Notes under the pieces: model-generated
Database searches by the model: none
What the model was told of the DNA's origin: nothing
The model's input: only the letters and a program-made list of their open reading frames with translations
Source: Amoebidium appalachense
Taxonomy: Eukaryota > Protista > Ichthyosporea
Direction of reading: 5' to 3'
Assembly: GCA_963693365.1 (NCBI GenBank)
Contig: CAVNZM010000004.1
Location: 8,894,468-8,958,467, forward strand
Length of the DNA: 64,000 bases
Position numbers and translations under genes: made by a program
Part shown: positions 70 to 59,731 of the stretch, one piece after another
How the letters are laid out: each line of letters starts with the position of its first letter
How positions within the stretch are numbered: position 1 is the stretch's first letter

Positions 70-1554
70 TCATGAAGGCGCCCTCTCACCCATACACCGT
101 TTCAAGTACGCCACCTCCTCCCTTAACGCCACAACCTGGCCCTTAAGCGCCTCGTTTTCCGCCCTTAGCCTCCTATTGTCCTGCAACGTTTCGTGCTCCA
201 TCTTCCTCCTCCTTTCGCGGTACTTTCTCGACGCTTCGTTATTCCTTCCCCTTCGATCGCCCGTCGGCTCCCCGGCCTCACTTTGAACCTCTTTTCCCTT
301 TCCGTGCGAGCTCCCGTTCGCCTTGGAGGTTCTTGATGAATTTCGCATCTGAGCCACCGATCCGGGTGTGCCCATGTTCAAAATCCCCGACCCGTCTTGG
401 GAATTATTCAATGAATTTACAACACCCCCTAGGTGCCCCTCATTGTGCGAAGACGTGGTTTCGGACGTGGCAGAGCTGTTACTGCGCGCACGTTGCACGT
501 GATTACCCACACTCACTTTCGTCTCGAGATTATCACGTGACCCCCCAGGCGTGTGTCCGTCGTTCAAATCCATGGCGGTTGGGTGACCCTGGCCGCCGTG
601 GTGATTTTGATCAGAGTCGGAAGGTTTGCTCGAACCCACGAAATTTGACGGGTGGCGGGCGGCGCCGTGCGCAAAACTATTGCCATTTTCGATCGGGTGG
701 TGTGCGATTTCATTGGACGACGTCGAATGAAAAATGCTCGAATGGGAGTGGGACTTCCGAGGCGAAGGGGCGGGATGCCACTGAACACCGTGTGCGTCGT
801 AATGGAAAGGCACCCCCTGAGACCCATGGTATACGCCGGCCGGGGGCGCGTGTCTGTGATTCGCGTAATCGGCAGCGAGATCGGGATGATCGTGATTTGG
901 TCCAGGGGACCCGCTCGAGTAATTCCTATGTACTAAGGTACTGCTGGATGTGCCATGTCCCCGCATAGGCCCCGGGTGGTGCAGAACGCCGGCGCCGTAA
1001 AACTTTTTCGTTGGGTCAAGCATGGGGCTATCCACACTACTGCTATGGATCATATTAATGTTATTGGGATGCGCTTTCGACACCCCACGGTGATATGATT
1101 CCGGATTTCGGCAAACCGGCAAATCTTGTTCCGAATAGTGCATAGTTGCGTCGTCCGTGTAGCGATGGTGCCGATTAGTTATCATCGGCTGTGCGGCCAT
1201 AGGCACGCCAGTGTGTTCAAACACGCCCGGTTGGTACCCCGGGCCGCTGTGGAAATCACTTTTTGCACCTTGCGGCAATCTTTCACTGCTTGCACCGTGC
1301 ACGTGGTTACCCCACGCCGCGTGGTGTGAAACCCCGTCCATTGGTTGGTCGTTAACCCCTGGGTGATATCTGATGTGGCCACCGACATCCGTCATCATAT
1401 CCGAAGAAATTTTCCGTTCAGAGTGAAACATGCTCGCTTGCTGTTCGACTCGATAAGGAAAGCCGCCTGGGGGCGGCAGGGCTTCCGACATTTTCGAGTG
1501 TGGGGGTTCGTATGCTCGCGGGTGGTCGATGGGGCGAAGAACGAGGGCGCTCAT
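70..1554 (-). CDS. bZIP transcription factor (C/EBP-PAR-ATF4-like basic region), ~494 aa
   Basis: Long His/Pro/Ser-rich ORF ending in RRGRNNEASRKYRERRR followed by a leucine heptad (L-RAENEA-L-KGQVVA-L-REEVAY-L). First ATG after the (CA)n tract is at 1554; an acceptor (cacgtgcag|) at 1597 suggests an upstream intron, so a further 5' exon is possible. Confidence 0.88.
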   Translation of the reverse strand: MSALVLRPIDHPRAYEPPHSKMSEALPPPGGFPYRVEQQASMFHSERKISSDMMTDVGGHIRYHPGVNDQPMDGVSHHAAWGNHVHGASSERLPQGAKSDFHSGPGYQPGVFEHTGVPMAAQPMITNRHHRYTDDATMHYSEQDLPVCRNPESYHRGVSKAHPNNINMIHSSSVDSPMLDPTKKFYGAGVLHHPGPMRGHGTSSSTLVHRNYSSGSPGPNHDHPDLAADYANHRHAPPAGVYHGSQGVPFHYDAHGVQWHPAPSPRKSHSHSSIFHSTSSNEIAHHPIENGNSFAHGAARHPSNFVGSSKPSDSDQNHHGGQGHPTAMDLNDGHTPGGSRDNLETKVSVGNHVQRARSNSSATSETTSSHNEGHLGGVVNSLNNSQDGSGILNMGTPGSVAQMRNSSRTSKANGSSHGKGKEVQSEAGEPTGDRRGRNNEASRKYRERRRKMEHETLQDNRRLRAENEALKGQVVALREEVAYLKRCMGERAPS

Positions 1555-1598
1555 AGTTCGTTGGGTCAAGCTTGAAGGGCTAGTAGGAGTCACATCCT

Positions 1599-1653
<55 letters not shown>

Positions 1654-2383
1654 TGTGCGCGCGCGTGCGTGCGTGTGTGTGGTGGTGATAGTCACGGCGC
1701 GAATCAGGAATGGCTTGAAATATATGACGGGGGTTATGTGGTGTGTGCGCTGTGGTGTTATGTGTGACACAGTGTGTCTTCTGAGAGGTGACAGGAAGGG
1801 CAGGGCGGGGGGAGAGGGATGAGGGGGAGGGGGGATAAATCAGGCGAAGGTTAGCTTAACTACCCGTATACCCGGGACCTGCACAATACGGCATATCATA
1901 ATAATGATGATTATTACTGATAACAGCTGACATCCAGGTCCCGGACACGCGACATATCACATTATGAATGAGTATGGTGCTGGGTTATCACATTGCCGAA
2001 CGGGGATGTGCAAGTGCACTACCGTGCCACGTGCACTCTTTCACGGGAGTGCGTGGAGCCGCTGCGCTCAACCCCCCCCCCCCCCCTTCACACCCCCACC
2101 CCAATGTGACACTCAACCCAAATGGCCTCACGGCGTGCTCAGTAACACAATGTGTAACTCAGACAGGCCAACTTCGATATACTTTACTGTGGTGACACAC
2201 CGCATGGCACGAAATACTTTAGTTTGTAGCAACAAAACACAGGTTATTGCACACCTTCGTAATGCCGGTAAACCTCAGAGCCTGACCCCTCCCCGCCCGG
2301 ACCCCCCCCCCATGCCTTCCCCCCGTTCAAGCCCCCTCCCCCCCCCCCCCCCCCCCTCTCCTGGTCCCCATTGGTCGTGTCAT

Positions 2384-6047: not shown

Positions 6048-8386
6048 CAATACCTCAGTCGGGTGTCAGTTAATCACCCTAGAGTCTGCCTTGACATGAT
6101 AGGTGCACGTGCCTGGCGGTGCGATTCGCCGAATAGACGCCATATGATCGTCGCCATCACAATGATGATTGATCAGCATCATCAGTGTACTTTGTGTACA
6201 TGTGGCGCCATTTATCCGCCAGGTGCGTAACAGATCTTACAGTTATATCCAGTTGAAATTATAGAATACTGCAATTGGCGTTAAGAAGGAAATGTTTTTC
6301 TTCAAATTCTTTCTTACTCATAAAGATTGCTTCGGTTGGCTTTAAGAATAGGGTCGTGTATATATGGGTGAGCGCGTATACGTGTGTGTACGTGTACACA
6401 CATGCAGATACGAATCGGTTGGCACACGCGGGCTAATACAACTCACACCCCTGCAGCCAATCAAATCTTTCGCTCGATCCGTTCAGATTTTTGTCGCACC
6501 TCATTTCCAGAAATTATATTTTCCAAAAAAGGTTCTGGTTATCTATACACAAATAAAAGCATTACTTATCTATCCATTCTGAGGACGCGTATCTGTATCA
6601 TGATCTACTTACATTGATGGGGGGGGCGGGGCGATCGAGGTGTACCAATACCATGTGCGCGCATAAATACTTGTCATGATTATACACAACATGCTTGAAT
6701 CAAAATAGCTCTAGCTACTAATTGGCTGCAGGTAAGATATCAAGAGGATGGGCTTTTTTATTCCCTTTATGTATTCGATTAGAAACTGAAAAATGCTATC
6801 TCTCTGTCATCGGTGGTTGTCAAGTCTCTGGTGACAGGTTTTGTAAAATTCTGAACAAATTGGCTACTTTGGCTCCCGGGCCGCTTTATCAATGACACAA
6901 GATTCAGTTGCAACAGCATTCTTGTGTCCGAAATGGACCATGCGCCACACTGGTGCTCACGCCATCGGTACACAACAGTATGATCATGAATGCTACATAA
7001 AATAGTCTACTCTAAAAACAAAGGATTCAGAGCTCTGGAGCCAGTGCTTCATATTTTTGATTATGGAGAAGGTATTTTAATAAATCTCTGGTAATTGGTA
7101 ACGTGGTAACTAATAAAATTAGTAAGTGACGCCGCGGCCCGCGGCCCGCGGCCCGTGGCCCGCAGGACAGTTTTTGCAGCAGCGTCGTATGACTACAACA
7201 CGATGTGATTGGCAGGTTATACTTTTTTGGCCCGCTCCCTCGTGCGCACGTGCACGTGTGCTCTGCCCGGATCATGATTCTCGGAATTGTTCCTCGAATA
7301 TAGCCCAACCTCGTTTGAATCAATCTGGTCAGAGTTCGAGGATATAAAAAGCCGCCCTGTAACCATCTTCTTTCCTCGATTAAATCCTCCTCGAGGATAG
7401 GCCCACATGCCAGGAGTATCATTTTTACCCAGAAGCACGGCCATCTAGATGGCCGTGCCCAGAAGGGGACGTGCACATGTGACTTCAAGTCGCCGCTTCA
7501 CGAAGCGTATCCTACTATGTAGTGTGTGTGCACACTGTGTGCACGTGTGTGTATGTGTGTGTGTGTGCTCGTGTGTGCGTGCGTGTGTTTCTCTTCTTTC
7601 TCGGCTCGCTCCCGGGCGCTCGCCCTACGCTCGCCCCGGGGCTCGCCCCTTGTAGGTACGTACGCTACAATAGTAAAAAGTCACCTACAAAAGACTCAAG
7701 TCGCAGCTTAAAGTCAGGACAAGTCACCAGCTCCTCTCACCAATTATACTAATTAGTCAAGTCGGCATAACTTGACTTGGCCGAAGTCAGGGTTTCCGTG
7801 ACTTCAAGTCGCAACTTTACGACTCTGCGCTCGCCGGCGAAGCCTCGCATTTTGATGATGGGTACAGCTCGCCCCAGCGCTTGCTCAATACGATTGGACC
7901 AAAAGCAGTGATGGAGCACCGCGCTATAGTTTATGCAAACTGATTGGATCACGCCTTGATTTTTGCAACCTGATTGGTTCCGGGATTATTGCGAACGGCT
8001 TAGTTCCTTCCCTTCCCCAGACCCTATCCTATCCCTATCTCCGTCGGTCACGCGACCTCCAAACTAAGTGACCGAGGTCACCAGTGGGAATCACGATTCG
8101 TCATGTCATGCAGATATATAGACATTTCATTCATATGATGATATGCTCCCAAATGTATTATCATCGTACACTGTAGTGGATAAGTCTTCAAGCTATATTG
8201 ATGTAGTACAGTGGCATAAAAAGAACAATACTACGGTAACATGATCATCCGATGTAATTGGCCCGAATCACGCGATCAAGCCGTGGCTGCACCGTGATGT
8301 ACATGTACAATACGTATATCCACGCTGTCAGTATACGTATGATCATGACTGATCCGATGATGATCGTGATGATCTGATTGTGAGCG

Positions 8387-8432
8387 GTCTAGTTATTTCA
8401 TCTCGCCCCCCTCCCTCTCTACTCTTATTCTA
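8387..8432 (+). repeat. Left terminal inverted repeat of the mitochondrial segment
   Basis: GTCTAGTTATTTCATCTCGCCCCC (8387-8410) matches the reverse complement of 14733-14756 exactly (24 bp); an imperfect pyrimidine-rich match continues for ~22 bp. Confidence 0.9.
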
Positions 8433-8647
8433 AGCTTCCGTCACTATATAAGATGATAATTACAATCCTAAATACAACATGTGATCGAAATCCAGAAAAT
8501 CGTCAATTTTGGAATTTTACCTATCATAGTTTGGAATTTATGAATTTTATAAGAATCTTAAATTGTAATTAACAGATTTATAAGATAGAATAAGTAATTT
8601 AGTACGATTAACATTGTATGTTAGGAATTAAATTAAATCATTCAATG

Positions 8648-8663
8648 TTAGGAAATAATAAAG
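8648..8663 (+). promoter_or_regulatory. Conserved 16-nt leader before rps13 ATG
   Basis: TTAGGAAATAATAAAG-ATG; 15/16 identical to the leader of atp6. Confidence 0.6.
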
Positions 8664-9056
8664 ATGAGAAAACACGATAAACAAGAATTAATATATGTAA
8701 CAGAAGAGAAAACGAAAGGTAGAGAAATATTTAAGAAGGTGTATGGGATAGGAGAAAAGGAATATGCAACAATAAGTGTAGAATTAGGATTGTCAAGCAA
8801 TCAAGGTAGAGGAGTAACGTCATATGAAAGAAGTCAAATTGACAATTATATTAAGAGACGTATGAAGTTTACAACATTAATTACAAATGACTTTCATATT
8901 AAACCTATTGAACAAAATTTAAGAGCTGCTACTAATTCTAAGATTTTAACTTTACAAAACATTAAAACATATAAAGGTATTCGCCATAAAAAGGGATTAC
9001 CAGTAAATGGACAACGTACTAAAACTAATGCTGTTTCGGCTAGACGTAAAAGATAA
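8664..9056 (+). CDS. rps13: Mitochondrial ribosomal protein S13
   Basis: 130-aa ORF with VYGIG and the S13 signature IKTYKGIRHKKGLPVNGQRTKTNA; AT-rich, intronless. Confidence 0.93.
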   Translation: MRKHDKQELIYVTEEKTKGREIFKKVYGIGEKEYATISVELGLSSNQGRGVTSYERSQIDNYIKRRMKFTTLITNDFHIKPIEQNLRAATNSKILTLQNIKTYKGIRHKKGLPVNGQRTKTNAVSARRKR

Positions 9057-9100
9057 CTAGTTTATCTTAACAAACAAGTAATACCTTTAGAGGTTAGAAT

Positions 9101-9116
9101 TTAGGTAATAATAAAG
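9101..9116 (+). promoter_or_regulatory. Conserved 16-nt leader before atp6 ATG
   Basis: TTAGGTAATAATAAAG-ATG; 15/16 identical to the rps13 leader. Confidence 0.6.
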
Positions 9117-9866
9117 ATGATAATAGGATCACCATTAGAACAATTTGTAATAAATCCATTAGTAAGCATATCAATGATAGGAATAGATCTATCAATAACG
9201 AATTCATCATTAACGATGATAATAGCCATAATATTAATAATAACAGCATATAAATTAAGCATAGAAAGAGGGTACATCGTACCAACTAGAATACAATCTG
9301 TAGTAGAAATCTTATACGAGACTGTTTATGGATTAATTAAAGATAACATCGGAGAAAAAGGTAATGCTTATTTTCCCTTTATCTTTACTTTATTCACATA
9401 TATAGTAGTTTTAAACTTAATGGGAATGGTTCCTTATGTATTTAGTGCTACTGCTCACATTAGTGTTGCTTTAGCTTTATCATTTGGAATTTGATTCGGA
9501 GTTACCTTACGTGGATTTAGTCTTCACGGTATTAACTTCTTAAGCATGTTCATGCCACAAGGAGCTCCAATGGCTCTTGCTCCTTTATTAGTAATGATTG
9601 AATTAGTAAGTTATTCAGCTAGAGCAATCTCATTAGGTGTTCGTCTTGCTGCCAACGTGAGTTCCGGACATCTTTTACTTGCTATTCTAAGCGGGTTTGC
9701 TTGAACAATGTTAAGTACAGGAGGTATTTTAGCGGCAGTTAGTATCTTACCAGCATTAGTCGTATTTGCTATGTCTGGATTAGAATTAGCCGTTGCGGTT
9801 ATTCAAGCTTATGTTTTCACACTCTTAACTTGTATTTATATTAACGATGCTATTCATTTACATTAA
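9117..9866 (+). CDS. atp6: Mitochondrial ATP synthase F0 subunit a, 249 aa (TGA read as Trp)
   Basis: SPLEQF N-terminus, [42 protein letters not shown]. In-frame TGA at 9492 and 9702 fall in Trp-type contexts (GIW, GFAW); the frame continues to TAA at 9864-9866. Confidence 0.96.
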
Positions 9867-10128
9867 TTTTATATTATAACTCTATCTCTCCTCGATGAGA
9901 GACTAATTCAATGCAATAAATAGGCTTGAAACCGCTATATTTTAAAGATAATGTAACTATTTACTTGTAGACTTGTGCAACTTTGTTAATTTAACGGCTA
10001 GGTACCAAATGTCAAAGTGCAATAACCTAGTTATAAATAAACTTAGTTATGGCCAACGCATTGAAACATTTAACTGTTTTAACTAAATCCCAGTCCAAAA
10101 AGCTTTTTGCTTCTAGATTGTATGCCCT

Positions 10129-10601
10129 GAGTGGTAGCGGAAGAATCTGAATTTATTGAATTGATCTGAGAAGGTATTAGTTAATTATTTAACACATTAA
10201 TTCAGATGTGGTACCCGGTTCTTCATTCTTTAGAGAGCCTGATGTTTAAATTCAGCTGCTAAATGTAGACATGAGTAAACAAAAATCAGTGGATTGAAAG
10301 TCTAAGACGTAGATATTGGATAAAAGATCTGTGTCACTTACTTGCCCAAAGTTTTAGATTGATTGCGCGGAGTGGTAGCGGAAGAATCTGAATTTATTGA
10401 ATTGATCTGAGAAGGTCCTAGTCAATTATTTAATACATTAATTCAGATGTGGTACCCGGTTCTTTAGAGAGCCTGATGTGTAAATTCCGCTGCTAAATGT
10501 AGACATGAGTAAACAAAAATCAGTGGATTGAAATCTGAGACGTAGATATTGGATAAAAGATCTGTGTCACTTACTTGCCCAAAGTTTTAGATTGATTGCG
10601 C
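10129..10601. repeat. Tandem duplication, ~240-bp unit x2
   Basis: GAGTGGTAGCGGAAGAATCTG starts at 10129 and 10370; copies are near-identical with small indels. Confidence 0.92.
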
Positions 10602-11094
10602 AGAGTGTAACAGCTCGTAAGAGAAAGCAAAAGCTTTATTCAATGGAAGAACTAAAATAGCAAGAAAATCGTAATGGTATTTAGGGCCCTATTACTTTAA
10701 TGTCAATCTAATTATAAAGCTCTTTAGAGTATCACTACTCTAATGACAATGGCTTCGTATTCAAGAAACAATTCTAGTATAAAGGCTCTACTGAGACTCT
10801 AGTACTAACTCGCAACTCGTTTAGTCCTTGCAACTCGTTGAGTAGTTTCAATCTGACACCAGTGGATAGACGTTAATGCGTTAAAGCATGGATGGGATGT
10901 TATTACAGAAACACGGCACAAATAATACCATAATTTTAGGTAAAGTATGTACTGCTTGAGGAATTATTATTATCAATATAGGCATTTTATATAGGGTGAA
11001 TTGTCGTTTGATTTCAAATTAGATCTGTATTGCTTGATAAAATAGTATCGTAGAGCATGGGAGAGTGCAATTAACACAATGATCTATTATAAAC

Positions 11095-11305
11095 TTCGCT
11101 ATATGCGAGAACCTTCTTAGAACCTACGGGACTAGACAGGGATTTCTTTTGTTAGTAAAACAACGTTCGGACGGGCAAATCCGTAGGAAACTACTCGAGA
11201 TAAAATATCTATTAGTAAATTTCTCATATACTACATGCAAAACAATCTGTTACATATACAGGTTGGAAAATATAGTCCGCTCTTAGATTAAAGTCTAAGC
11301 TGGTT
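11095..11305 (+). ncRNA. Degenerate group I (IB-like) intron catalytic core, no host gene recognised
   Basis: P-like TATATGCGAGAA (11100), Q-like AATCCGTAGGAAAC (11178), R-like TTCTCATATACTACATGC (11221), P8 hairpin CAATCTGT/ACAGGTTG, S-like GAAAATATAGTCC (11266), P9 hairpin CTTAGATT/AGTCTAAG; correct P-Q-R-S order. Confidence 0.62.
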
Positions 11306-13289
11306 GGAATGAATAGTACTATAACTTCCTTCTAACCTGGAGGTTTAATGATATATCATATTTATTAAACTAATATTTAGTGTTTATCGAAAATACAGTG
11401 TACTGCAAAATCATATTGTTAAAGTAATAGGATTCTTGCAAACTCGTAAGAGAAAGTATAATACATAATGTGTCTTCAATACTAGTACCTGAAGTCTGCT
11501 TGTTTAAGGTGTACTCTAAGGAATTTTTAAAGAAATTATAAATTCATATTACTTTCTAACCCTATGCAAAAATAGGGACCTTCCTCTGTTAATTCATCGA
11601 TAGAATAAATTTAATTCTAGAATTTTAAGGATTTTAATTAGAAATCGGCAAGATAATAATACTTTTACTATCTTTGAGACCAAACTCATGAAATTGAATT
11701 ATTTGTGCCGATGCGTTAATTGGGCTAGGTATATGAGAATGCGATCTGCAAAGTTTAAATAAGTAATGTGATGTTAGTTTTTCACTGAAGAGTCTGTCCC
11801 TCCGAATTTTTACTAGAGTCTCAGTAGAGTCACCACTCATAAAATACTCGTTAAAAAGTAGTATAAACTCTCCAAGTTTAGAGCTATATGCAGGATTTTT
11901 AAGGCTGGTGTATTAAGCCTGCTTCGAAAACTAAATTTATATAAGTAATAAAAGAAAGTTTACGGTTTAAGCTCCTAGATTAAAGATTAAGTACTTTCGT
12001 TTAGTTTGTACTATTTTAACAGTTTGAATTTGTATGCCATCTGACAGATTAGAAAATATAGATGTATAGTAGTAGGACGGTTTAAAAATAATAAGGTGCA
12101 TATTTAAGAACCGAATAAGTTATTGGTTATGTAAGTAGAGACGTTATTATGACATATCACCAAAGAGATAAAAAGTTTAAAGGCGAGAGTCTCTCTTGAG
12201 CCTTCTAGCTAAGAAACGTTCTTATGCTTTAGTAAAATTCTCCTTACTCGTACAAGGTGAATGGGTAATTCTCAAATTACAAGAGTCTCTTCAAAGCTTT
12301 CTCGCTAAGAGAAAAGTCTTATACTCTTGTCATTATACGACGACAAGCTCGTCTAGTACTCGCAACGAGTTGGTACTCGCAATACTCTTTTGTTAAGAAA
12401 GAGATAATAGTTATGCTATGAAGTAAAAGCTTGTGGACTTAAACTAAATGATTTTACATTGGACAAAGTATAAATCTGTATTAGATTTTTTACCGTTGGA
12501 CAAATCTGAGACCGTAAATTCTAGTCTCGGAAAAGTAATTGCTCTAAGAGCATTAACGATACCTGGTACGGGGGGAGACGAATAAATTGAAATCGAGATT
12601 AGATCCCGGATATTTCTCAAGGACGAAGTTTAGGGTGACTTGACGGAGGACTTTCTTGATGGTTAGCTAAGGTGCCTTAACAAAGGACTTTCTTAATAAG
12701 AGAGCTTTATACCTGTAAAATCTAGAAAGGTAAATATTTTTAAGGTGCTCTGCGGTTTAGAGCATCATTCGTTTACCAAATTTCACGCTGTTAAACTACT
12801 ATTGATAAATATCCTACCCCCTTCCATATTTGTTAATAAGGTACAGGTCTTGTATTCTTGATCGTCAGGATTGTTCAATTATGGGATGCCTCTTTGTAAA
12901 TCATTTAACATTCGAGTCGTCTGTCAAGAAATATCCGCCTAAACCTAAGATAACCTTGTAGAATTTTCTATAGTATAACAATGGTTGCTACCTTTCAGCC
13001 GGTAATCTTTTAGTCGGATTTCTAAATTTATATTGGTTTACTAAGGAAATCTCCACCTATAAATATATCACATGGTCTATTTTTCTTGCAGATGACAAAG
13101 GGTGCTACTCTTTCTGCAGATAATCCTTTAGTTGAATGTATAAGATCTTGAGTCGTTTCCCAAGGAAATCTAAACCTACATCCCAATAAAGCTGGTCTAT
13201 TATTCTCGCGAGGTCGAAGTTTGTTATCCTTTAGGCAGGTCATATCTTAGTTCGATTTATAACATTTAAGCTAATTTTCAAAGGGAATC

Positions 13290-14590
13290 TCAGTATATTA
13301 CAAGAATAACCTGGTTTATTCTCTTTTGAATAAGACATAAATACATGAATCCATTAGGATCGAGAATAAGTGCGAATACATAAATGCATAAATCAATCGT
13401 GCATGAATCAATGGGGCTCTGGCGTGCATGGTATGAATCATTGGGACTCTTGAATATAAGACATAAGTAAATGTACTTTGGGGTGCAGGAGTACATAACA
13501 TGAATGCGAATGCATGAATCAATGATGGTCGCGCACGATATGACATAAGTATATAAGTCAATTATGAGCCTGCAGGAATTAGTGGTGCTCTTGAGTGTAC
13601 GGCATAGGTCAATGGTGCTATTAGATGCATGAATATATTAAAAATTGTGCAGGAATCCGTAGTGCTATTGAGTATATAACATAAGTGCTAATACATAAGT
13701 GCATGAAGAAATTGGGATTGTGGATATTCTTGTTGTTCTTAAATCTTATGGTTGTTCATGGGTACTTCTGGCAATCATGTATATATCTCATGGATGTATA
13801 TGTATGCTTCTTAGCAATACTGTAATAGACAACTCTTAGGAATCATGGACGAGCTATTAGGCACTAATTTCGTATTATGAATGTTGTTTAGCTATCTAGT
13901 ATGTAAATGGATCATCGATGTTAAGGAGTCCCTCGTGCATGTCATGGCATGAGTGCAAGGATCAATGGTGTTCTAGAAATAAGTGCAGGAATCAAGGATG
14001 CTCTAAGTGTATGACATGAATGTATAAATTAATTGGGTTCTGGGTGTATGGAATAACATGAGTGTATAAATCAATGGAGCTATTAGATGCATGAGTGTAT
14101 AACATAAATGCATGAATCAATTAAAATAGTGAAGAAATTGATTAGGATCATGTAGTAATCAGTGGTGTTCTTGGGTACATGAATCAATTGGGATCGTGGA
14201 CATCCTTGTTGTTCTTAGATCTCATAGCTCTTTCTGGTTTCATGGCTGTTTATGAATCTCATGATTGTCCCTGTATGCTTCTTTTCAAAACTGTATGGAT
14301 CTCATGAATCTTATGGTTGTTTATGAATGCTTCTTAGCAATAATGTAATAGACAACTCTTAGCCATTATGGATGAGCTATTAGGCGCTAATTTTGTATTA
14401 TGAATGTTGTTTAGCTTTATTAAATATCAAGGGATCATCGATGTTAATGAGTTACTCGTGAAGGGTATAGCATAAGTGCATGGAACAATTAGGAATGCAG
14501 GAATCAATTGGAATCGGGCATAAGTAAATAACATGAATGCGAATGCATGAATCAATTGGGGATCACGCACGGTATAATATGGGTGCATGA
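13290..14590. repeat. Degenerate subterminal repeat array (~520-bp higher-order unit made of short CATGAAT/TGCATG motifs)
   Basis: A ~90-bp block TGCTTCTTAGCAATA...TTTAGCT recurs at ~13806 and ~14328; CATGAATGCGAATGCATGAATCAAT recurs at ~13499 and ~14532. Confidence 0.8.
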
Positions 14591-14657
14591 AATCCAAGAC
14601 GGCCACTCGGCAATCCAAGACGGCCACTCGGAAATCCAAGACGGCCACTCGGAAATC
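14591..14657. repeat. 21-bp tandem repeat x3
   Basis: AATCCAAGACGGCCACTCGG(C/A) at 14591, 14612, 14633. Confidence 0.95.
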
Positions 14658-14710
14658 ATAAAATTCCATCCTACCCTACATGTAGAATCTACACTTCCTA
14701 GGTACATGCC

Positions 14711-14756
14711 TAGAGTAAGAAGAAGGGAGAGAGGGGGCGAGATGAAATAACTAGAC
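14711..14756 (-). repeat. Right terminal inverted repeat of the mitochondrial segment
   Basis: Reverse complement of 8387-8432; outer 24 bp identical. Confidence 0.9.
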
Positions 14757-14790
14757 TGGGCCCCCCGAGCATGTCCTGGGGTGGGGGGGG

Positions 14791-14974
14791 TATGATGCAC
14801 TGAATTGGGTGCACTGAATCGCTTTCCGGGCACTGAAACCGACCGGCGCGGGCGGGGGGCGCGAACCCGGGCCGGCACATGATGATTCAGTGCATCGAAT
14901 TCAGTGCAAAAGCTCGTCGGCGTCGCCAGTGCTCATGTAAATTCAATTCAGTGCAACTTGAATTCAGTGCACCT
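14791..14974. mobile_element. ~180-bp foldback/MITE-like element made of TGCACTGAAT motifs
   Basis: Three forward copies (14796, 14810, ~14830) and four reverse copies ATTCAGTGCA (14885, 14899, 14946, 14962) around a GC-rich spacer. Confidence 0.55.
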
Positions 14975-15264
14975 AGGGTTTACATAGTTTGCGCAAACTT
15001 TGGCGCCAAATCGCCCCGCACGGCCCGGCCGGCGGGCGCCTCGCGTGTGCCGACTCAGTATGGTGTGACGGTATGTAAACGGCAAACCCGAAAATTTTTA
15101 GCACAATCATTCTTGGGTAGGCTCGCTAATTTCAATGCAGAAAGTCGTTGCAGTACCACGTGATACCTGCTACTATACAATACACTGCGGCGTGTAGTGT
15201 GGCAGTGGCTGCGGCCTTTTTCTTCTCATTGCAGCTGCAGCTACGTGTTTCTCATCCTTTGAAA

Positions 15265-19963
<4,699 letters not shown>

Positions 19964-22476: not shown

Positions 22477-32247
<9,771 letters not shown>

Positions 32248-33790: not shown

Positions 33791-34416
33791 ACCACCACCA
33801 CCACCACCACCACCACCACCACCACCACCACCACCACCACCACCGCCACCACCACCACACACACACACACACACACACCGACTCACCCACCCAAACACCA
33901 CAAAAAAATTAATAAAAAAATAAAAAAATAAAAAAAAATAAAAAAACACAATTAGCAGGGGCCCTCACCCAAGGGAAACCATAAACGGGAGAGAAACAGT
34001 TGAACTAAATCCTACCGTAGCCACAACAACAGGATTTATGAGCACCGTTTCATCTCCGGCCACACGCCAGGATTCCTCTGGACCAATCAATTCAACCAAA
34101 TTAAATACCAGAATGACTTCATCCGATGCCAATCCTCCCCCAGCATCGTAAAAGCAGAAAATGAGAATAAAAAAAATAGAAAAGCACAAAATGTGATTGT
34201 TCCGATTTTTCACACCTCCAACGATTGCACAATCACTATACAGCGGAATAACAAGAAGGAGCCACCCCCCCTCCCCCCACCCCCCCCCCCCCCAAAAAGA
34301 ACAGGGCATGCCACCAGTGAACCAGCCCAATCAATTACATGTCCGTTTCTAAATTGGCACCTTTCCCACCATTCACACAACCTTTTCTCTAATCACGTGA
34401 CTTCTCCACCCACCAA

Positions 34417-50898
<16,482 letters not shown>

Positions 50899-51978: not shown

Positions 51979-52993
51979 TGTGTGTGGGGGGGGGGGGTGC
52001 GTGTGTGCGTTGCGTTGCGTATGTGTGTGTGCGCGTGCGCACGCGTGTGTGTGCGTGCGTGTGCGTGCGTGTGCGTGTGCGTGCGTTTGTGTGTGCGTGT
52101 GTGTGCGCGCGTGCGCGCGTGCTTGTGTTTGTGTCTGTGTTTACTCGTTTGTGAGTGCGTGCGTGTGCGCACACGGGGATGACTGGGATTGTTGTGTGCA
52201 CTGATGATTGTTGCTGTATGTGCTGCACAAGGGCAGGATGCCACAGGCGCCTGCGTGCTGTGTTTTGTGCGTGCTGTGGGCTGTGCGTGCTTTCTGTGCA
52301 TCTTTACACGTTTGTGTGCATGTGGCAACGGGGTCAGCGGAAGTTTGCAATTGGGAAGGGAGGTGGACAGTGGTAACGATTCATATGCACGTGTGAACGC
52401 AATAGGTTAATAGTGGATCCTGGGGGATGGGGCGGTTGGGCTGGGGGGGAGGTGGGATGGTGGGGATGGGGGCTATGTATGTGTAGTAGTCGCACTGGCC
52501 GTCGCTGAGTGCGTCTGCACGTAGGACAAAGGTTGTCATGGTAGACACATCAGGAATAGCCCATGATCGCAGTTACAGCGATAAAATTGAATGTCAGTCT
52601 TGTGTATGGTTGGGAGTGTGCGGGTGTGTGGGTGTGGTTCTGCTTATGCGTGGGGGTATGCCAGACGCAGCCAGGGGGCGTGGTGGTTAGGAGGAGGGGG
52701 GGGAGGGGGGGGGGAGGCAACACAAATTTCGACCGATGCTGCTTAACCTTATTTGAAAGAAATGAAAAAGTCGAGAGTGGTCAAGCGACCTCACTTTGAG
52801 ATCAGGAGCAAGGGGAACCATTATGTGTTGGCACACTAACTGTGCACTACTTTCAGAGTTTGGCGTCTTCTTATTCAGCATGGGGTTGAGGACCTGAAAG
52901 AAGTTCCCGACCTGCCCAAGGTATTTCTACATACCCCCTCCCTCCCCCCCCCCCCCCCCCAAAAAAAAAAAATCCCGTAATTGCGCCCCCCCC

Positions 52994-53027
<34 letters not shown>

Positions 53028-53356
53028 AAAAACCCCGTAATTGTTTCCCCCCCCCCCCCCCCTCCTTCCCGGATGCAAGTCTTTATGCCTCCCCGGTTAT
53101 CCAACCGGTTGTATGTACAACGGAACATGAAAGAGGGTGGGGGGGTGTGGTGATGTGTGTGCGTGCGTGTTTTTGTGTGTGTAGCGCCCCCCCCACTCCC
53201 CTGGGGGGGAGGGTGTATGTGTGGTGGGGGGGGGGGGGGGGGGGGGGGGGAGGGGGAGGGGGGAGGTGGTGGTGGTGGTTGTGGTTGTGGTGTGTGTGCG
53301 TGTGTTTTTCTTTTTCTTTTTTTTTTTTTTTTTGGAGGGGGAGGGGGGGGGTTCTT

Positions 53357-53389
<33 letters not shown>

Positions 53390-53408
53390 TTTTTTTTGTG
53401 TGTGTGTG

Positions 53409-53439
<31 letters not shown>

Positions 53440-53655
53440 TGGCTCAGAAGACGAAGAGGGATTCGGCGAAGCTGGGGGAAAGTGACCCAATGTACAAAAG
53501 TGGGTGTTTTTTTTTGTTTCATTCTTTTTTTTTCGAGGGGGGGGGGGAAGGGGGGAGGGAGGAACGGGATGGAAAGGATGAGGGGAGAGGAAGGGGGAGG
53601 GGGGGGGGGGGGGGGAAGAGAGAGAGAGAGAGAGGGAGAATCGGGGTGGTTGTGT

Positions 53656-53704
<49 letters not shown>

Positions 53705-54394
53705 CGGGGTGGGTGTGTATGGTGTATATTTGTATTTGTTTGCAGGGGTTCTGGTACGCGGGGGGGGGGGGGGGGGGGGGGGGGGGTCGTGGCAGGGGGG
53801 AAGTGTGTGAGTGGGTGTGGGGGGGGGGGGGGAGGAGGGGGGGGGAGGGGCGCGATGGGAACATGGACCCTGTACTTTTGAACTGCCTCTAACACCACCA
53901 ACCAACTATCCCTTTTTACAGGCTGCGTTAGAGCTCCTGACGACCAAATTCGCCACCACGACCTCACGCGTGGTTAAAGAAACGACGTCATCCGACCGCT
54001 CAACCACGAAACTACTAGTGGAGCTGCAAGACGGGAAGAGGGTGGAATCTGTGATTATGCGATACGGAGACGTAGAGTTAAAGTCGTTTCCGGAGGAGGA
54101 AAAGGAAAGGTTAAGGAAGGGAGAAAAGTTGGAGTTTAAGTCGAACAAGAGGGCTACTCTGTGCATATCTTCGCAGGTTGGGTGTCAGATGGCGTGCACG
54201 TTTTGCGCCACGGGGACTATGGGGTTGGTTGGCAATCTGAGCTCCGGTGCGTGTTCACTATCCCCCCTCCCCTCCCTCCCTCCCCCCCTCCTTGCGACCC
54301 CCGCTGTCCTTCCACACACGCACATGTGCGCGCGCACACACACACACACGCATGCATGCATGTGCATGCGCGCGCACACACACACACACAAACA

Positions 54395-54441
<47 letters not shown>

Positions 54442-55892
54442 CAACACCACCACCACCACCCACCATCATCACCACCACCACCACCAACACACACACACCC
54501 TTCTACCTTTCGCCTGGATGACTTGGACCCCTCAAAATAGGTTCTACTTGTGTTACACGAGTCAGTTTGTGTACAGCGTTGTGCCAGTCAGAGCCCCCTT
54601 TGATGGCTACACATCAAGATGATTGACGGTATCCAATTAAATTTTATGTCGCATTAGGCCTACTGTTCCCCACCAATGACAGCCAATCGCTTCTCATCAT
54701 ATCAAACAGTCTTATATTTATCCACCATTTTCAGCTCTCCGATTTCCAAACTACGGCAAAGCACCAATGACATCTGACGATTGATTACTATATTAGGTGA
54801 GATTCTTGAGCAGCTGTACCACGCCAACAAGGTTGAACACATCCGCAATGTCGTATTTATGGGCATGGGTGAGCCTCTGGACAACTATGATGCCGTTATT
54901 GGAGCAGTGAGGGCCATGACTGACACCAGGAGGTACGTGTAGTTTCCGGGTTTAGCTGTGCCCAAAATGCGAACCATGTTTTTTTTTTTGTGCGTGTGTG
55001 TACGTGTGGTGGTGGTGGGAGTGGGGGGGGGGGGGGGGGGGGGGGGGGAAGGGGGGAGGAAGAGGGAGGGGCGGGAGAATAGAGAGGGGGGAGGGGGTTT
55101 CGGGGTATGTGTGGGTGTGGGTGTGGGTGCAGTCCGGCCTATGACACACACTAGGAGGTTTGTGTGGTTTTGTAGGTGTGGGTGTGGGAAATGTTCATCA
55201 TGTTTGTGTTGGGGGGTGGGGTGGAGGGTGAGGGGGTTGGGTTGGATGGGGGGGTGGGGAGGGAGGGAGGGGTGGAGGGGTGAAGAAGGGGGGAGGGGGG
55301 GGGGGGGGGGGGGGGGGGCGCTGAGGTATGTGTCGGTGTGGGCTTGGGTGCAGTCAGGGCTATGACAGATACTATATTAGGTTTGTGCAGTTTTGTGGGT
55401 TTGGGTGTGGAAATGTGCACCGTGTTTGTGTGTGCGCCGGGGGGAGGGGGGGATATGCTTGTGTGCGCACGTTGAGGTGATGGGGAGGGGTCCGGCGGGG
55501 GGGGGGGGGGGGGGGGGGGGGGGAGTGCGTGTGGTCGTCTTTCAGCCTGGAGAGGAACGGGTCATGGAGGGGCCGCTAACTTCTTTCTTTTTCCTTTTTT
55601 TCTCTTTTGCCCTTTTTTCCCCTCCTTGTTTTTCCCCTTTTGTATTACTTCTCCATGTTTTCTCATTTTTTTCGTTTTGTTTTCCGGTATTTCCCCTTGG
55701 CATTGGTGTGCAGGTGGGGCATGGCCACTACGCGCATATCAATCTCTACAGTCGGGGTGGTCCCCAGAATATACAAGGTGTGTACACGTGCACACGCATG
55801 GTCTGTGTGTGTGCACAGGCATGTGCATGCGCCTCCCGACACACACGCACACATTGCACACACATGCATACACACATGCACACGCACACGCA

Positions 55893-55941
<49 letters not shown>

Positions 55942-56102
55942 ACACACACACATGCACACACACACACACACATGCACACACACACAAACACAAATACAAT
56001 CTTTAATCGGGACTGCCGTCCTTCTCCCCCCCCCCCGCCACCTTCCCCTTTGGCACCCCGTTCCTACCTTGCTTTCACACCCCTCAGCGCAATCATGTCA
56101 AT

Positions 56103-56161
<59 letters not shown>

Positions 56162-56175
56162 CCCCCCCCCCTCCC

Positions 56176-56208
<33 letters not shown>

Positions 56209-56754
56209 TGCTCCTCTTACTCCCTTTCGCTTGTTCCCCCCCCCCCCCCCCCTCCCTCCCCTCCCCCCTTGCCCCTACCTCTTCTTCTCTGTCATTACAT
56301 ACCTCTGACATCCCCCTCCCCCCCCCCCCCTCCCCTCCCCTCCCCACCAAAAAAAAGAAAAAGAAAAAAAGCACCTTTCTGTGGTCGTTGGGTGTGTATC
56401 TCTAACATACCTCCCCCCCCCCCCCCCCCCTCCCCTTTAGCTCATGGAGGATGCACCTGAGATCAGCCTGGCCCTGTCCCTTCATGCGCCCAACCAGGAT
56501 CTGAGGTGCCGCATCGTGCCCTCATCAAAGGCATGGCACATCGACAGGATCATGGAGGCCATGGATGCTTATATAGACGTGAGCATATAGCCCCTCCGCT
56601 CCCCCCCCCCCTCTCTTCCCCTCACACACACAAGCGCACGCACACACACTCGCACACGCACACGCGCGCACACACACACTTGCACAAACACACACACTCA
56701 CACACACACGGGCAAGCAATGCTTGAACACATTGAGCAGTCACACCCACACCCA

Positions 56755-56793
<39 letters not shown>

Positions 56794-56832
56794 GCAGGCA
56801 GTGCTTGAACACATTGAGCAGTCACACACATC

Positions 56833-56863
<31 letters not shown>

Positions 56864-57064
56864 GGGCAGGCAGTGCTTGAACACATTGAGCAGTCACACA
56901 CATCCACACACGACACACACACACACACACACACACACGGGCAGGCAGTGCTTGAACACATTGAGCAGTCACACACATCCACACACGCACATGCATACCG
57001 GTACATGTTTCACAAGTCTTGCATCTCACGCATGTAGTTTTCTATTCCACTGACCCCCCCCCCC

Positions 57065-57095
<31 letters not shown>

Positions 57096-57180
57096 ACACC
57101 CCACCTCACCCACCCCACCCTACCCCCACCCCCCACCCTGGCCCCCCTTGGCTGTCTCTCTAGATTCACAGGGACGGACG

Positions 57181-57247
<67 letters not shown>

Positions 57248-58685
57248 TATACAGACATACATACATACACACAGAAGGCACCCACACTCACACAACACAC
57301 AACCCCCACACACGTGCACGTACACGCACACTTACACACACACACACACACGTACACACACAGAAACAAAACAGCGGCAAGGAGCGTAAGCGTCACGTGA
57401 TGGTCGAGTATGTTCTGATTGCTGACGTCAACGATACGGTCGACGTGGCCCGCCAGCTCGGAGCGCTGTTGCAAGGTCCGTGATATTAAAAATCAATTAT
57501 TTAAAATGCTATTTTACTATTGCATGCAGGCCCCAGGCCCCGGGCTAGAATAGGACAAGAGTAGGACAGGAATTATTCAAGTAAATGGGATGGTGAAGCA
57601 GGTAGGACTCTTTGAATTTGCTTTTTGCATGAGCTGTTAGGGCCTGTTTGGCAACGCGGAGTTACGAACTCCGGCGTAGACCGTATACGCCGGGTATCAA
57701 ATCAGTATCCAGATTCTGATTTGTAATCCGGATTTAGGTCAAAACCTGGCGTAGATACTAACCGCTCGTGCCAAACAGACAACACTTTTTTCAGCTGCAG
57801 CTTAGTTTATCAAGTCACATTGCGCAAGTTTTACGTTGATCGGAGTGCGCATACTTTGCACGTATATCATACCTAGGACTCAGTACTAATTTTTTTGTAG
57901 TGACTGTGCAGTGTCCCGTATGTATGTATTTGTATACACTGTAATGATACCATTTGCATATATAACAACATCAACGTTTCCGGTTGCAAAACCACTATGT
58001 ATTTAGCACGAAACATGGCCCTTTCGGCCGCAATTGCAGCAATTGCATTCTTTGCTTCCCCCTACAGGCATCCTGTCGGTTCAGACAATCTTGACCGATG
58101 TGCAAAAGATTGTCTAATGGTAAAAAAAAGGTTGCCTACAAGTTGGCCGCGTAGAGGAAGAATAGTTGAGGGGGGCTTGTTTTTATACGACCTACCACAC
58201 GTGGCCGGCTGTGTGTGGCTGGTCGCAGCCTGCGCTCGGGCTGTCGCAGGCTCACCAGCAAGCTGGCCATGCCGGTGACAACGTCGGACTTTCCGTTTGG
58301 CGTCTTTTCCACTTTAACTGTTTTTGGCTATATTGCACTGCCGCCAATTGGCCGATAGAGAAATTTAAAAAGGTCTCACGACATGAATTTTCATTGGTTT
58401 AGACCTTCACACGGCGTTCAATTTCGCGCATAATCCACCTCCGGAGGTGGATTATAGAAATTGGAGTACAAGCGATGTCCAAGGGGTTTGAAACCCGGCG
58501 TACACAGGCCCAGATTGGGCCGTCTGTTTGGCATCGCGGATTTCAGAAAATCCGCTTTAGCCCTAACTCCAAAATCGATCTTACTCCGGAGTATGGCCGC
58601 TAACTCCGCGTTGCCAAACAGGCCCTTAATGGTTGGGGTATGTGTGGGTGGGGGTGTTTTTTTTTTTCTTTATTTTTTTTTGGGT

Positions 58686-58718
<33 letters not shown>

Positions 58719-59731
58719 TGGGCACACATTCCTGATTGCATCAGCTATGTAAAGACCCTGTTGTTTTCCTACCTGTGCCCATGCGTGCGTGTTTGTGTGT
58801 GTGCATGTGTTTGCCTGTGAGTGTGTGTTTACGTATGTGCGTGTGTGTGTGTGTTGACCGTGAGGGTTGCAGGGAGGCAGGTGCTGCTCAACGTGATCCC
58901 ATACAACCCAACACTGGTGGAGGCAGACTACAAGGTGCGTGTGTGGGGAGGGGGGGAGGGGAAGGGAGGATTGCGAGTGCAGGTGGGGGTGTGAGGGCGG
59001 GGGGGGGGGGGGGGGGGGGAGGGGGGGGGAGGGAGGGAGGGGATCGTGTTTGTGTGTTGGACGTGGGCCTGGGTGTGGGCCTGGGCGCATTGGCTTGTGG
59101 GCGCATGGGTGGGCGGGCGCGTTTGCGGGTGAGCAGTCGGGCGGCCGGGCAGGTGGATGGGGCGTGCCTGCTCGTGCTGAGTGACTACCGTGCACATCGG
59201 TTCGTGCCTGCAAGTGTGCGTAGCTGCCTGCCTGTCTTTGAGCGTGTGCTTTTGCCTCTGTGGCCCCACATGTGCATGCGCTTGTACATGCGTGGGAGAA
59301 TGTTTTTGCACGGCATGTGTTGCGGTTTAGAGGTTGCACACTGGATCAATTTTAAGGTGTCGTGCAGGCACCGACGCGGGAATCCACGACGCTATTTATG
59401 GAAACGGTGCGCAGCTATGGGGTGCACACCTTAATTAGGCAGGAGCTGGGCCAGGATGTGAGCTCGGCATGCGGCCAGCTGGTGATTGATAACAGGTACG
59501 TACGTGTGTGTATGTGGGGGGGGGGGGGGGGGGGGAGAGGGGAGGAGGGGGGAAAGGGGAGGAGGGATATTGTGGGTGGGTGGGTGGGTGGGGGGGTGGG
59601 GGGGGGGGGGGGGGGGGGGGCAGAGGGATGGGTGATTGGGTGAATATGTGGGTGTGTGGGTGTGGATGTGTGTGTGCTTGGGTGGGTGTATGGGTGTGGG
59701 TGTGTTTGGGTGGGTGTATGTTCTTTTTTTT

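What the first reader, a model, noticed from the sequence alone, without database searches (positions are those of the whole stretch)
8387..14756. A whole linear mitochondrial mini-chromosome, termini included, inside a nuclear contig
Seen: a 6.37-kb AT-rich block with intact rps13 and atp6 in code 4, bounded precisely by ~45-bp inverted repeats (24 bp perfect), with genes near one end and a repeat array at the other. Known: the ichthyosporean Amoebidium parasiticum has a mitochondrial genome of hundreds of small linear chromosomes sharing terminal sequence patterns. Inference: this is one such chromosome captured end-to-end. Ordinary NUMTs break at arbitrary points, so linear organelle chromosomes may integrate here as discrete units. 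Intact ORFs and the absence of microsatellites imply a very recent event.
Basis: partly seen in the sequence, partly recalled or inferred. Interest (0 to 1): 0.9.

Follow-up and report, generated by a model that had tools for sequence, protein, structure and literature searches.

The report
Whole mitochondrial mini-chromosome, unfixed nuclear insertion
A full-length copy of one small linear Amoebidium mitochondrial chromosome sits inside a nuclear contig, but short-read data from two samples show the left flank running on without it, so it is likely a very recent insertion carried by only some nuclei, or else an assembly error.

Summary
Window 8387-14756 is a 6,370-bp AT-rich block with rps13 and atp6 (91% and 94% identical to Amoebidium parasiticum), bounded by ~49-bp inverted repeats (24 bp perfect), inside nuclear DNA with no Ns. 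Public short-read contigs match the interior almost letter for letter at 8-58 times the depth of the single-copy left flank, so it is the resident mitochondrial sequence.

In two samples from two studies, a single-copy contig covers the left flank exactly to 8386 and then continues into 59 letters that are not the block. Depth and length arithmetic suggest these letters are the right flank, i.e. an empty site with no bases lost. No listed contig clearly bridges either junction, but the tables were cut and contigs drop rare alleles.

The insertion is therefore not fixed. Best reading (0.52): a very recent, unfixed whole-chromosome NUMT captured by end joining. Close rival (0.36): a chimeric-read or assembly artefact. 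Intact genes cannot date it. Near-full-length NUMTs of linear mitochondrial chromosomes are already reported in Hydra, and one case gives no rule of discrete-unit integration. Modest interest.

The parts
8387..14756 (+). Full-length copy of an Amoebidium-type linear mitochondrial mini-chromosome (rps13-atp6 type)
   Evidence: GC 33.8%. Listed contig pieces cover 5,357 of 6,370 bp (8621-14356) with 1 substitution and 1 gap in all, at organelle-like depth.
8387..8435 (+). Left terminal inverted repeat (24 bp perfect with the right arm, then a pyrimidine-rich tract)
   Evidence: Summed depth at 8439 is 4, 19 and 24 times the interior in X1, X3, X8, with many length variants at 8406-8415, so it is shared by many molecules.
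14708..14756 (-). Right terminal inverted repeat
   Evidence: high summed depth in bin 14642-14908. The last base, 14756, may belong to the nuclear flank (inferred).
8664..9056 (+). rps13, 130 aa
   Evidence: PF00416 E 3.5e-14; 91% to A. parasiticum Q8M0B4 / AAN04078.1; 0 differences to an X8 contig over 8621-9326.
9117..9866 (+). atp6, 249 aa, code 4 (2 TGA = Trp)
   Evidence: PF00119 E 2e-58; 235/249 identical to A. parasiticum Q8M0B3 / AAN04079.1; next hit 80%.
10111..10607 (.). Tandem duplication of about 240 bp in non-coding mtDNA
   Evidence: 92% identity, 10111-10374 against 10352-10607.
12295..12366 (.). Dispersed repeat shared by many mitochondrial molecules
   Evidence: Summed depth at 12334 is 73-180 times the interior, with many loose ends at 12295, 12352 and 12366.
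13330..14560 (.). Degenerate repeat region with a 182-bp direct repeat (13785-13966 / 14308-14489, 84%)
14589..14657 (+). Subterminal 21-bp tandem array, 3.3 copies
   Evidence: TRF score 131.
7964..8386 (.). Single-copy nuclear left flank; in reads it continues into sequence other than the block
14757..15700 (.). Right flank: multi-copy nuclear repeat
   Evidence: Contig depths 547.5 and 276.2 in X1 and 1416 in X3, against 41.1 and 191.1 for the left flank; under 10 in X8.

Best explanation
The block is a complete copy of a resident linear mitochondrial mini-chromosome that was likely captured whole at a nuclear double-strand break very recently and is likely carried by only some nuclei, one haplotype or one sub-line. 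Shown: the sequence is the current high-copy mtDNA, and an allele in which the left flank does not enter the block exists in two samples. Inferred: that allele is the empty site joining 8386 to 14756, with no bases lost, no target duplication and at most 1 bp of microhomology, as in end-joining capture. Also inferred: the natural chromosome ends served as the joining ends, which explains the repeat-to-repeat precision without an integrase, and an assembler would favour the insertion branch because organelle reads inflate its coverage. In the nucleus it would be inert: atp6 has two TGA codons and the genes have no nuclear expression signals that I could identify.
For: Identity to mtDNA: listed pieces cover 5,119 bp in X1 (1 substitution, 1 gap), 2,544 bp in X3 (0) and 3,655 bp in X8 (0). 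Contig depth is 8 times (X1) and 58 times (X3) the left-flank contig; X8 has about 190 inside and under 1 on the left flank. Empty site, two numerical fits: (i) at 14783 the X1 total depth 505.5 minus the 464.4 contig with a 2-bp deletion leaves 41.1, exactly the depth of the left-flank contig; (ii) consecutive contigs overlap by 30 letters, the X3 repeat contig starts at 14785, so an incoming contig ends at 14814 and a 59-letter tail starts at 14756. Exact flank adjacency with no Ns is hard to get from random ligation chimeras, which do not restore both sides of one break (inference). 54% of primate numt insertions show no deletion (PMC2567098, abstract), and polymorphic numts are common (PMC2820518, passages). 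Amoebidium isolates are polymorphic for large foreign insertions (PMC11244446, passages).
Against: No listed piece has 31 letters on both sides of either junction; shown were 32 of 3,514 pieces, 15 of 22 joints and 24 of 410 loose ends. The flank contig passes 8386 unbroken in both samples, whereas a common insertion allele should branch the graph there unless graph cleaning removed it (recalled behaviour; the tool says contigs drop rare variants). The 8386-to-14756 joint is not among the listed joints, so it is inferred and not seen. In X3 the residual depth at 14783 is 354.9, of which 163.8 is not explained by the flank contig. The right junction lies at the edge of a multi-copy repeat, where assemblies tend to break. 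One X1 contig lies up to 14768 and then carries adapter-like letters; it may cross the junction (for) or mean that natural ends run about 15 bp further (against exact end-to-end capture).
Confidence: 0.52

Rival explanations
1. Assembly artefact: a genuine free mitochondrial chromosome was written into the nuclear contig through chimeric long reads, gap filling, or scaffolding whose gaps were later polished away. The end-to-end precision follows because the free molecule, or its contig, is a whole chromosome.
For: No junction support among the listed pieces, an unbroken flank contig in two samples, and identity to mtDNA. Linear mtDNA is 8-58 times deeper than nuclear DNA, so it is the likeliest chimera partner. 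The right junction is at a repeat edge. Published Amoebidium genomes were built from ligation-kit nanopore reads with Flye, micro-C scaffolding and later polishing (PMC11244446, methods passage); I do not know whether this window comes from such an assembly. A mis-join at linear mtDNA terminal repeats is documented in Chlamydomonas (PMC10030371, passage).
Against: There are no Ns. The flanks appear exactly adjacent in the empty allele (inferred), which needs one molecule flank-mito-flank or two chimeras at the same base. A 6.4-kb organelle contig is usually too small to be scaffolded (recalled). The X1 contig ending at 14768 may cross the right junction.
Confidence: 0.36
2. A fixed NUMT present in all nuclei of the species or strain, as the finding implies.
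For: The assembly is gap-free across both junctions, and the best runs hold 0.85-0.89 of the sampled words of block plus flanks.
Against: A fixed insertion predicts that the single-copy flank contig runs into the terminal repeat. In X1 and X3 it does not, although both match the flank with 0 differences over 423 bp.
Confidence: 0.05
3. Active, transposon-like integration: mitochondrial chromosome ends are recognised by a nuclear transposase or integrase and inserted as units.
For: Terminal inverted repeats and precise ends. The right flank is a multi-copy repeat, and 1.8 kb further on is a DUF6729-like frame with weak Mutator-transposase look-alikes (lead only).
Against: No target-site duplication at the junctions. 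No frame over 111 aa in the block besides rps13 and atp6. The repeats are explained as ordinary Amoebidium mitochondrial chromosome ends (PMC2518934, passage). There is one case only.
Confidence: 0.07

Closest known systems
Amoebidium parasiticum linear mitochondrial chromosomes (Burger et al. 2003; not seen, cited through passages of PMC2518934 and PMC7027106)
   Same: Several hundred linear chromosomes with inverted terminal repeats and shared 5' and 3' subterminal sequences, genes in one orientation, TGA = Trp. Its rps13 and atp6 have consecutive accessions AAN04078.1 and AAN04079.1, which suggests the same two-gene chromosome.
   Different: Proteins are 91% and 94% identical, so this is a related Amoebidium lineage and not that record. 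Here the chromosome is embedded in nuclear sequence. Its terminal sequence could not be compared.
Hydra magnipapillata NUMTs from linear mtDNA (PMC3716686; abstract, passages and section 11 seen)
   Same: Nuclear copies of linear mitochondrial chromosomes with inverted terminal repeats, up to 7,684 of 8,194 bp and 7,421 of 7,686 bp, up to 100% identical.
   Different: The passages seen do not describe both termini retained or an empty site. Hydractinia and two jellyfish with linear mtDNA have no NUMTs (PMC11067881, PMC7305137, passages), so linearity alone does not predict capture.
Polymorphic NUMTs inserted by non-homologous end joining (PMC2567098 abstract; PMC2820518 passages)
   Same: Clean insertion without flank loss, little or no microhomology, presence/absence polymorphism.
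   Different: Those come from circular mtDNA, so both ends are fresh breaks. Here both ends would be the natural chromosome ends.
Chlamydomonas reinhardtii NUMTs (PMC10030371, passages)
   Same: Linear mtDNA with terminal inverted repeats; junctions checked with long reads; an assembler mis-join at the terminal repeats was found.
   Different: Validated organellar insertions there are only 28-384 bp.

Membership tests
Amoebidium-type linear mitochondrial chromosome | Mitochondrial genes closest to Amoebidium, TGA = Trp | tested here: met
   atp6 94%, rps13 91%; 2 TGA in atp6.
Amoebidium-type linear mitochondrial chromosome | Inverted terminal repeats at both ends | tested here: met
   49-nt arms, 24 bp perfect.
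Amoebidium-type linear mitochondrial chromosome | Terminal sequence shared by many chromosomes | tested here: met
   Summed depth at 8439 is 4-24 times the interior, with variant contigs at both ends. Summed depth is not a copy number.
Amoebidium-type linear mitochondrial chromosome | Genes co-oriented from the 5' subterminal to the 3' subterminal sequence | tested here: inconclusive
Amoebidium-type linear mitochondrial chromosome | Present at organelle copy number | tested here: met
   Contig depth 8 and 58 times the single-copy flank contig; present at about 190 in X8 where the left flank is under 1.
Amoebidium-type linear mitochondrial chromosome | Free molecule ends exactly at 8387 and 14756 | tested here: inconclusive
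   Contigs cannot show molecule ends; one X1 contig extends to 14768 before adapter-like letters.
NUMT | Mitochondrial sequence flanked by nuclear DNA in the assembly | tested here: met
   Flanks hold bZIP and ABC-transporter frames and microsatellite-rich introns; no Ns.
NUMT | Both junctions supported by reads at nuclear depth | tested here: inconclusive
   No listed bridging piece, and the left flank contig goes elsewhere in X1 and X3; tables are cut and contigs drop rare alleles. A fixed NUMT is not met in these samples.
NUMT | End-joining signature at an identifiable empty site | tested here: inconclusive
   Empty site 8386-14756 inferred from depth and contig geometry, not read directly.
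NUMT | Divergence or nuclear methylation distinguishing it from mtDNA | not testable with these tools
   Needs raw long reads; the interior is identical to mtDNA contigs.
TIR DNA transposon | Target-site duplication | tested here: not met
   The 30 bases on each side of both junctions show none.
TIR DNA transposon | Transposase or integrase encoded within | tested here: not met
   No other frame over 111 aa in the block under code 4; only the two genes were scanned against Pfam.

The most novel reading that the evidence does not exclude
Amoebidium mitochondrial mini-chromosomes enter the nucleus and integrate repeatedly as whole, end-to-end units through their terminal repeats, in real time within cultures and possibly at transposon ends. 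The nuclear genome would then hold a catalogue of complete mitochondrial chromosomes with directly ligatable termini, which would reveal how these still-unexplained ends are built.
Probability: 0.1. Interest if true: 0.72.

Novelty: new member of a known kind. Interest (0 to 1): 0.33.

Why it matters
If real, it shows that natural Amoebidium mitochondrial chromosome ends can be joined directly to a nuclear break. That argues against covalently closed or protein-blocked ends, or requires very clean processing, and it bears on how this several-hundred-chromosome genome keeps its ends. It would also be an insertion caught before fixation. If it is an artefact, it warns that assemblies of organisms with many small linear organelle chromosomes can show convincing gap-free 'whole-chromosome NUMTs'. 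Either way the block gives a complete rps13-atp6 chromosome sequence for a second Amoebidium lineage. I found no paper on Amoebidium NUMTs in the listings, and 'NUMT' occurs 0 times in the main text of PMC11244446. Subscription papers and all supplements were not seen and may bear on this.

Tried and rejected
No whole genome is held, so the search for other repeat-to-repeat inserts was not possible. Terminal-motif scans gave 0 matches in viral contigs and 1 in metagenome contigs, L001. That hit is a 19-bp match inside bacterial-looking coding sequence with no other similarity to the block, rejected as chance. There are no tRNA or tmRNA genes in the window and no Rfam match in 8000-15200 at E up to 0.5. 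No RNA holder was listed. Run X9 was laid but not used: 61 of its 67 changed places are C>T or G>A, like a base-converted library (inference), and it barely covers the flanks. Only 4 of the 24 listed runs were laid. I looked for the far end and target duplication of the right-flank repeat, to prove flank adjacency from the window alone; no convincing partner was found, and one search was swamped by microsatellites. Three look-ups in earlier findings returned nothing. The primary Amoebidium mtDNA paper was not obtained. The 16.5-17.6-kb frame had no Pfam hit and no solved-structure hit better than E 0.57. 'Intact ORFs imply recency' and 'no microsatellites imply recency' were rejected as arguments, because an artefact predicts both equally.
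Full report
OBSERVATION. Window 8387-14756 is 6,370 bp at 33.8% GC between flanks of 48% and 54%, with no N in the window. Its ends are inverted repeats of 49 nt (8387-8435, 14708-14756), perfect for exactly 24 bp and not extendable outwards; chance expectation is about 4e-7. Two genes lie on the + strand near the left end: rps13 (8664-9056) and atp6 (9117-9866, two TGA read as Trp). The rest is non-coding: a ~240-bp duplication, degenerate repeats and a 3.3 x 21-bp array before the right end. No tRNA or Rfam hit was found.

IDENTITY. The best atp6 hit among the 7,999 scored candidates is Amoebidium parasiticum (235/249); the next is 80% and the rest are 66% or less. rps13 has one hit at E up to 1e-10 among 552 candidates, again A. 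parasiticum, 91%. The two A. parasiticum proteins have consecutive accessions in the same order, suggesting the same two-gene chromosome. Passages of PMC2518934 and PMC7027106 describe that genome as several hundred linear chromosomes with inverted terminal repeats and shared subterminal sequences; the primary paper was not seen. The flanks are nuclear: a bZIP frame, an ABC-transporter fragment and microsatellite-rich introns.

READS. Of 24 listed runs, 20 hold part of 6600-16500; I laid 4 of them on 7700-15700. All are short contigs, and the best holder may be the assembly's own sample. Inside the block the listed pieces cover 5,357 of 6,370 bp with one substitution and one gap in total, both in X1 within the duplication. 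Per-contig depth is 302-351 in X1 against 41.1 for the left-flank contig, about 11,000 against 191.1 in X3, and about 190 against under 1 in X8. Both termini carry much higher summed depth and many variants, as expected of ends shared by many chromosomes. So the block is the living mitochondrial chromosome's sequence.

THE JUNCTIONS. In X1 and X3 (different samples and studies) one 482-bp contig matches 7964-8386 with 0 differences and then goes on for 59 letters that are not the block (table 8). A fixed insertion predicts that it runs into the terminal repeat, so the insertion is not fixed in these samples. Two numbers suggest the tail is the right flank. At 14783 the X1 total depth minus the contig with a 2-bp deletion is 41.1, the flank contig's exact depth. 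Consecutive contigs overlap by 30 letters and the X3 repeat contig starts at 14785, so an incoming contig ends at 14814, and 59 letters back is 14756. That gives an empty site joining 8386 to 14756: no bases lost, no duplication, one base ambiguous. This joint is inferred. It is not among the 15 of 22 joints shown, and in X3 163.8 of the residual depth is unexplained.

No listed piece bridges either junction by the tool's 31-letter rule, but only 32 of 3,514 pieces and 24 of 410 loose ends were shown, and contigs drop rare variants, so a minority or heterozygous insertion allele is not excluded. One X1 contig lies up to 14768 and then carries three other letters and what I recall as Illumina adapter; its start is not shown. 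It may cross the right junction, mark a natural end about 15 bp further out (the window's left end would then be about 15 bp short), or come from another copy of the flank repeat. I could not settle this.

MECHANISM. Best (0.52): a free mini-chromosome reached the nucleus and was used as filler at a double-strand break by end joining, its own ends being the joining ends; the allele is new and unfixed, and the assembler took the insertion branch because organelle reads inflate it. Clean insertion without deletion is the commonest numt outcome in primates (54%, PMC2567098 abstract), and presence/absence polymorphism is usual (PMC2820518 passages). Exact flank adjacency without Ns is what tips me towards a real molecule, since random chimeras do not restore both sides of one break. 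Rival (0.36): chimera, gap fill or scaffolding. The linear mtDNA is abundant, the right junction sits at a multi-copy repeat edge, published Amoebidium genomes used nanopore, Flye, micro-C scaffolding and later polishing (PMC11244446 methods passage; the window's own source is unknown to me), and an assembler mis-join at linear mtDNA ends is documented in Chlamydomonas (PMC10030371 passage). A fixed NUMT (0.05) and transposase-driven integration (0.07; no target duplication, no enzyme in the block) are unlikely. My first stated odds favoured the artefact, 60 to 35; the exact-adjacency fit moved them, and they remain close.

COMPARISON AND NOVELTY. It is a member of the Amoebidium-type mitochondrial chromosomes on four tested features, with the true ends unconfirmed. 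It works like a NUMT, but membership depends on junction reads, which are inconclusive. Hydra has NUMTs covering 94-97% of its linear chromosomes (7,684 of 8,194 and 7,421 of 7,686 bp; PMC3716686 passage), whereas Hydractinia and two jellyfish have none (passages). Whole-molecule capture is therefore not categorically new, and one case gives no rule. I found no paper on Amoebidium NUMTs (listings); supplements and subscription papers were not seen. Papers PMC8303319, PMC3268669 and PMC7194472 were seen as single passages and add only that the genome is fragmented and linear.

VERDICT. Interest 0.33.

Noticed in passing
window 16501-19963: Intron-split gene on +. The 360-aa frame at 16537-17616 resembles DUF6729 (PF20499) clusters by language-model features (0.92-0.94), with weaker Mutator/MULE transposase look-alikes at 0.80-0.82; no Pfam hit. 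Possibly a Mutator-like transposon whose left part is the multi-copy repeat beside the right junction.
   Followed up: partly
window 14796-14971: Cluster of a 10-bp motif in both orientations (2 forward, 4 reverse), like subterminal transposase-binding repeats, found nowhere else in the window.
   Followed up: partly
window 12295-12366: Short repeat at 73-180 times the interior depth, shared by many mitochondrial molecules, with related copies at about 10780-10850, 11800-11840 and 12186-12310; could give a rough count of mitochondrial chromosomes.
   Followed up: partly
window 10533-10537: In X1 the second copy of the ~240-bp duplication differs from the window by one substitution and one inserted base, while X3 matches the window at 10537: repeat collapse or gene conversion in mtDNA.
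   Followed up: no
window 70-1839 (-): Long frame with a C-terminal bZIP domain (PF07716, E 1.2e-10).
   Followed up: partly
window ~25000-32000, ~34000-46000 (-), ~52000-59000: Exon fragments that read like a nitrilase-family enzyme, an ABC transporter (PF00005 hit) and a radical-SAM RNA methyltransferase; the first and third names are recalled from motifs and were not confirmed by Pfam on the fragments scanned.
   Followed up: no
proteins P0002, P0121: Unnamed atp6 proteins from Logan contigs; P0002 is 80% identical to this one and P0121 is in its 90% cluster: another ichthyosporean-like mitochondrial lineage in public runs.
   Followed up: no
L001 405-423: Chance 19-bp match to the terminal repeat in a bacterial-looking metagenome contig.
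   Followed up: yes
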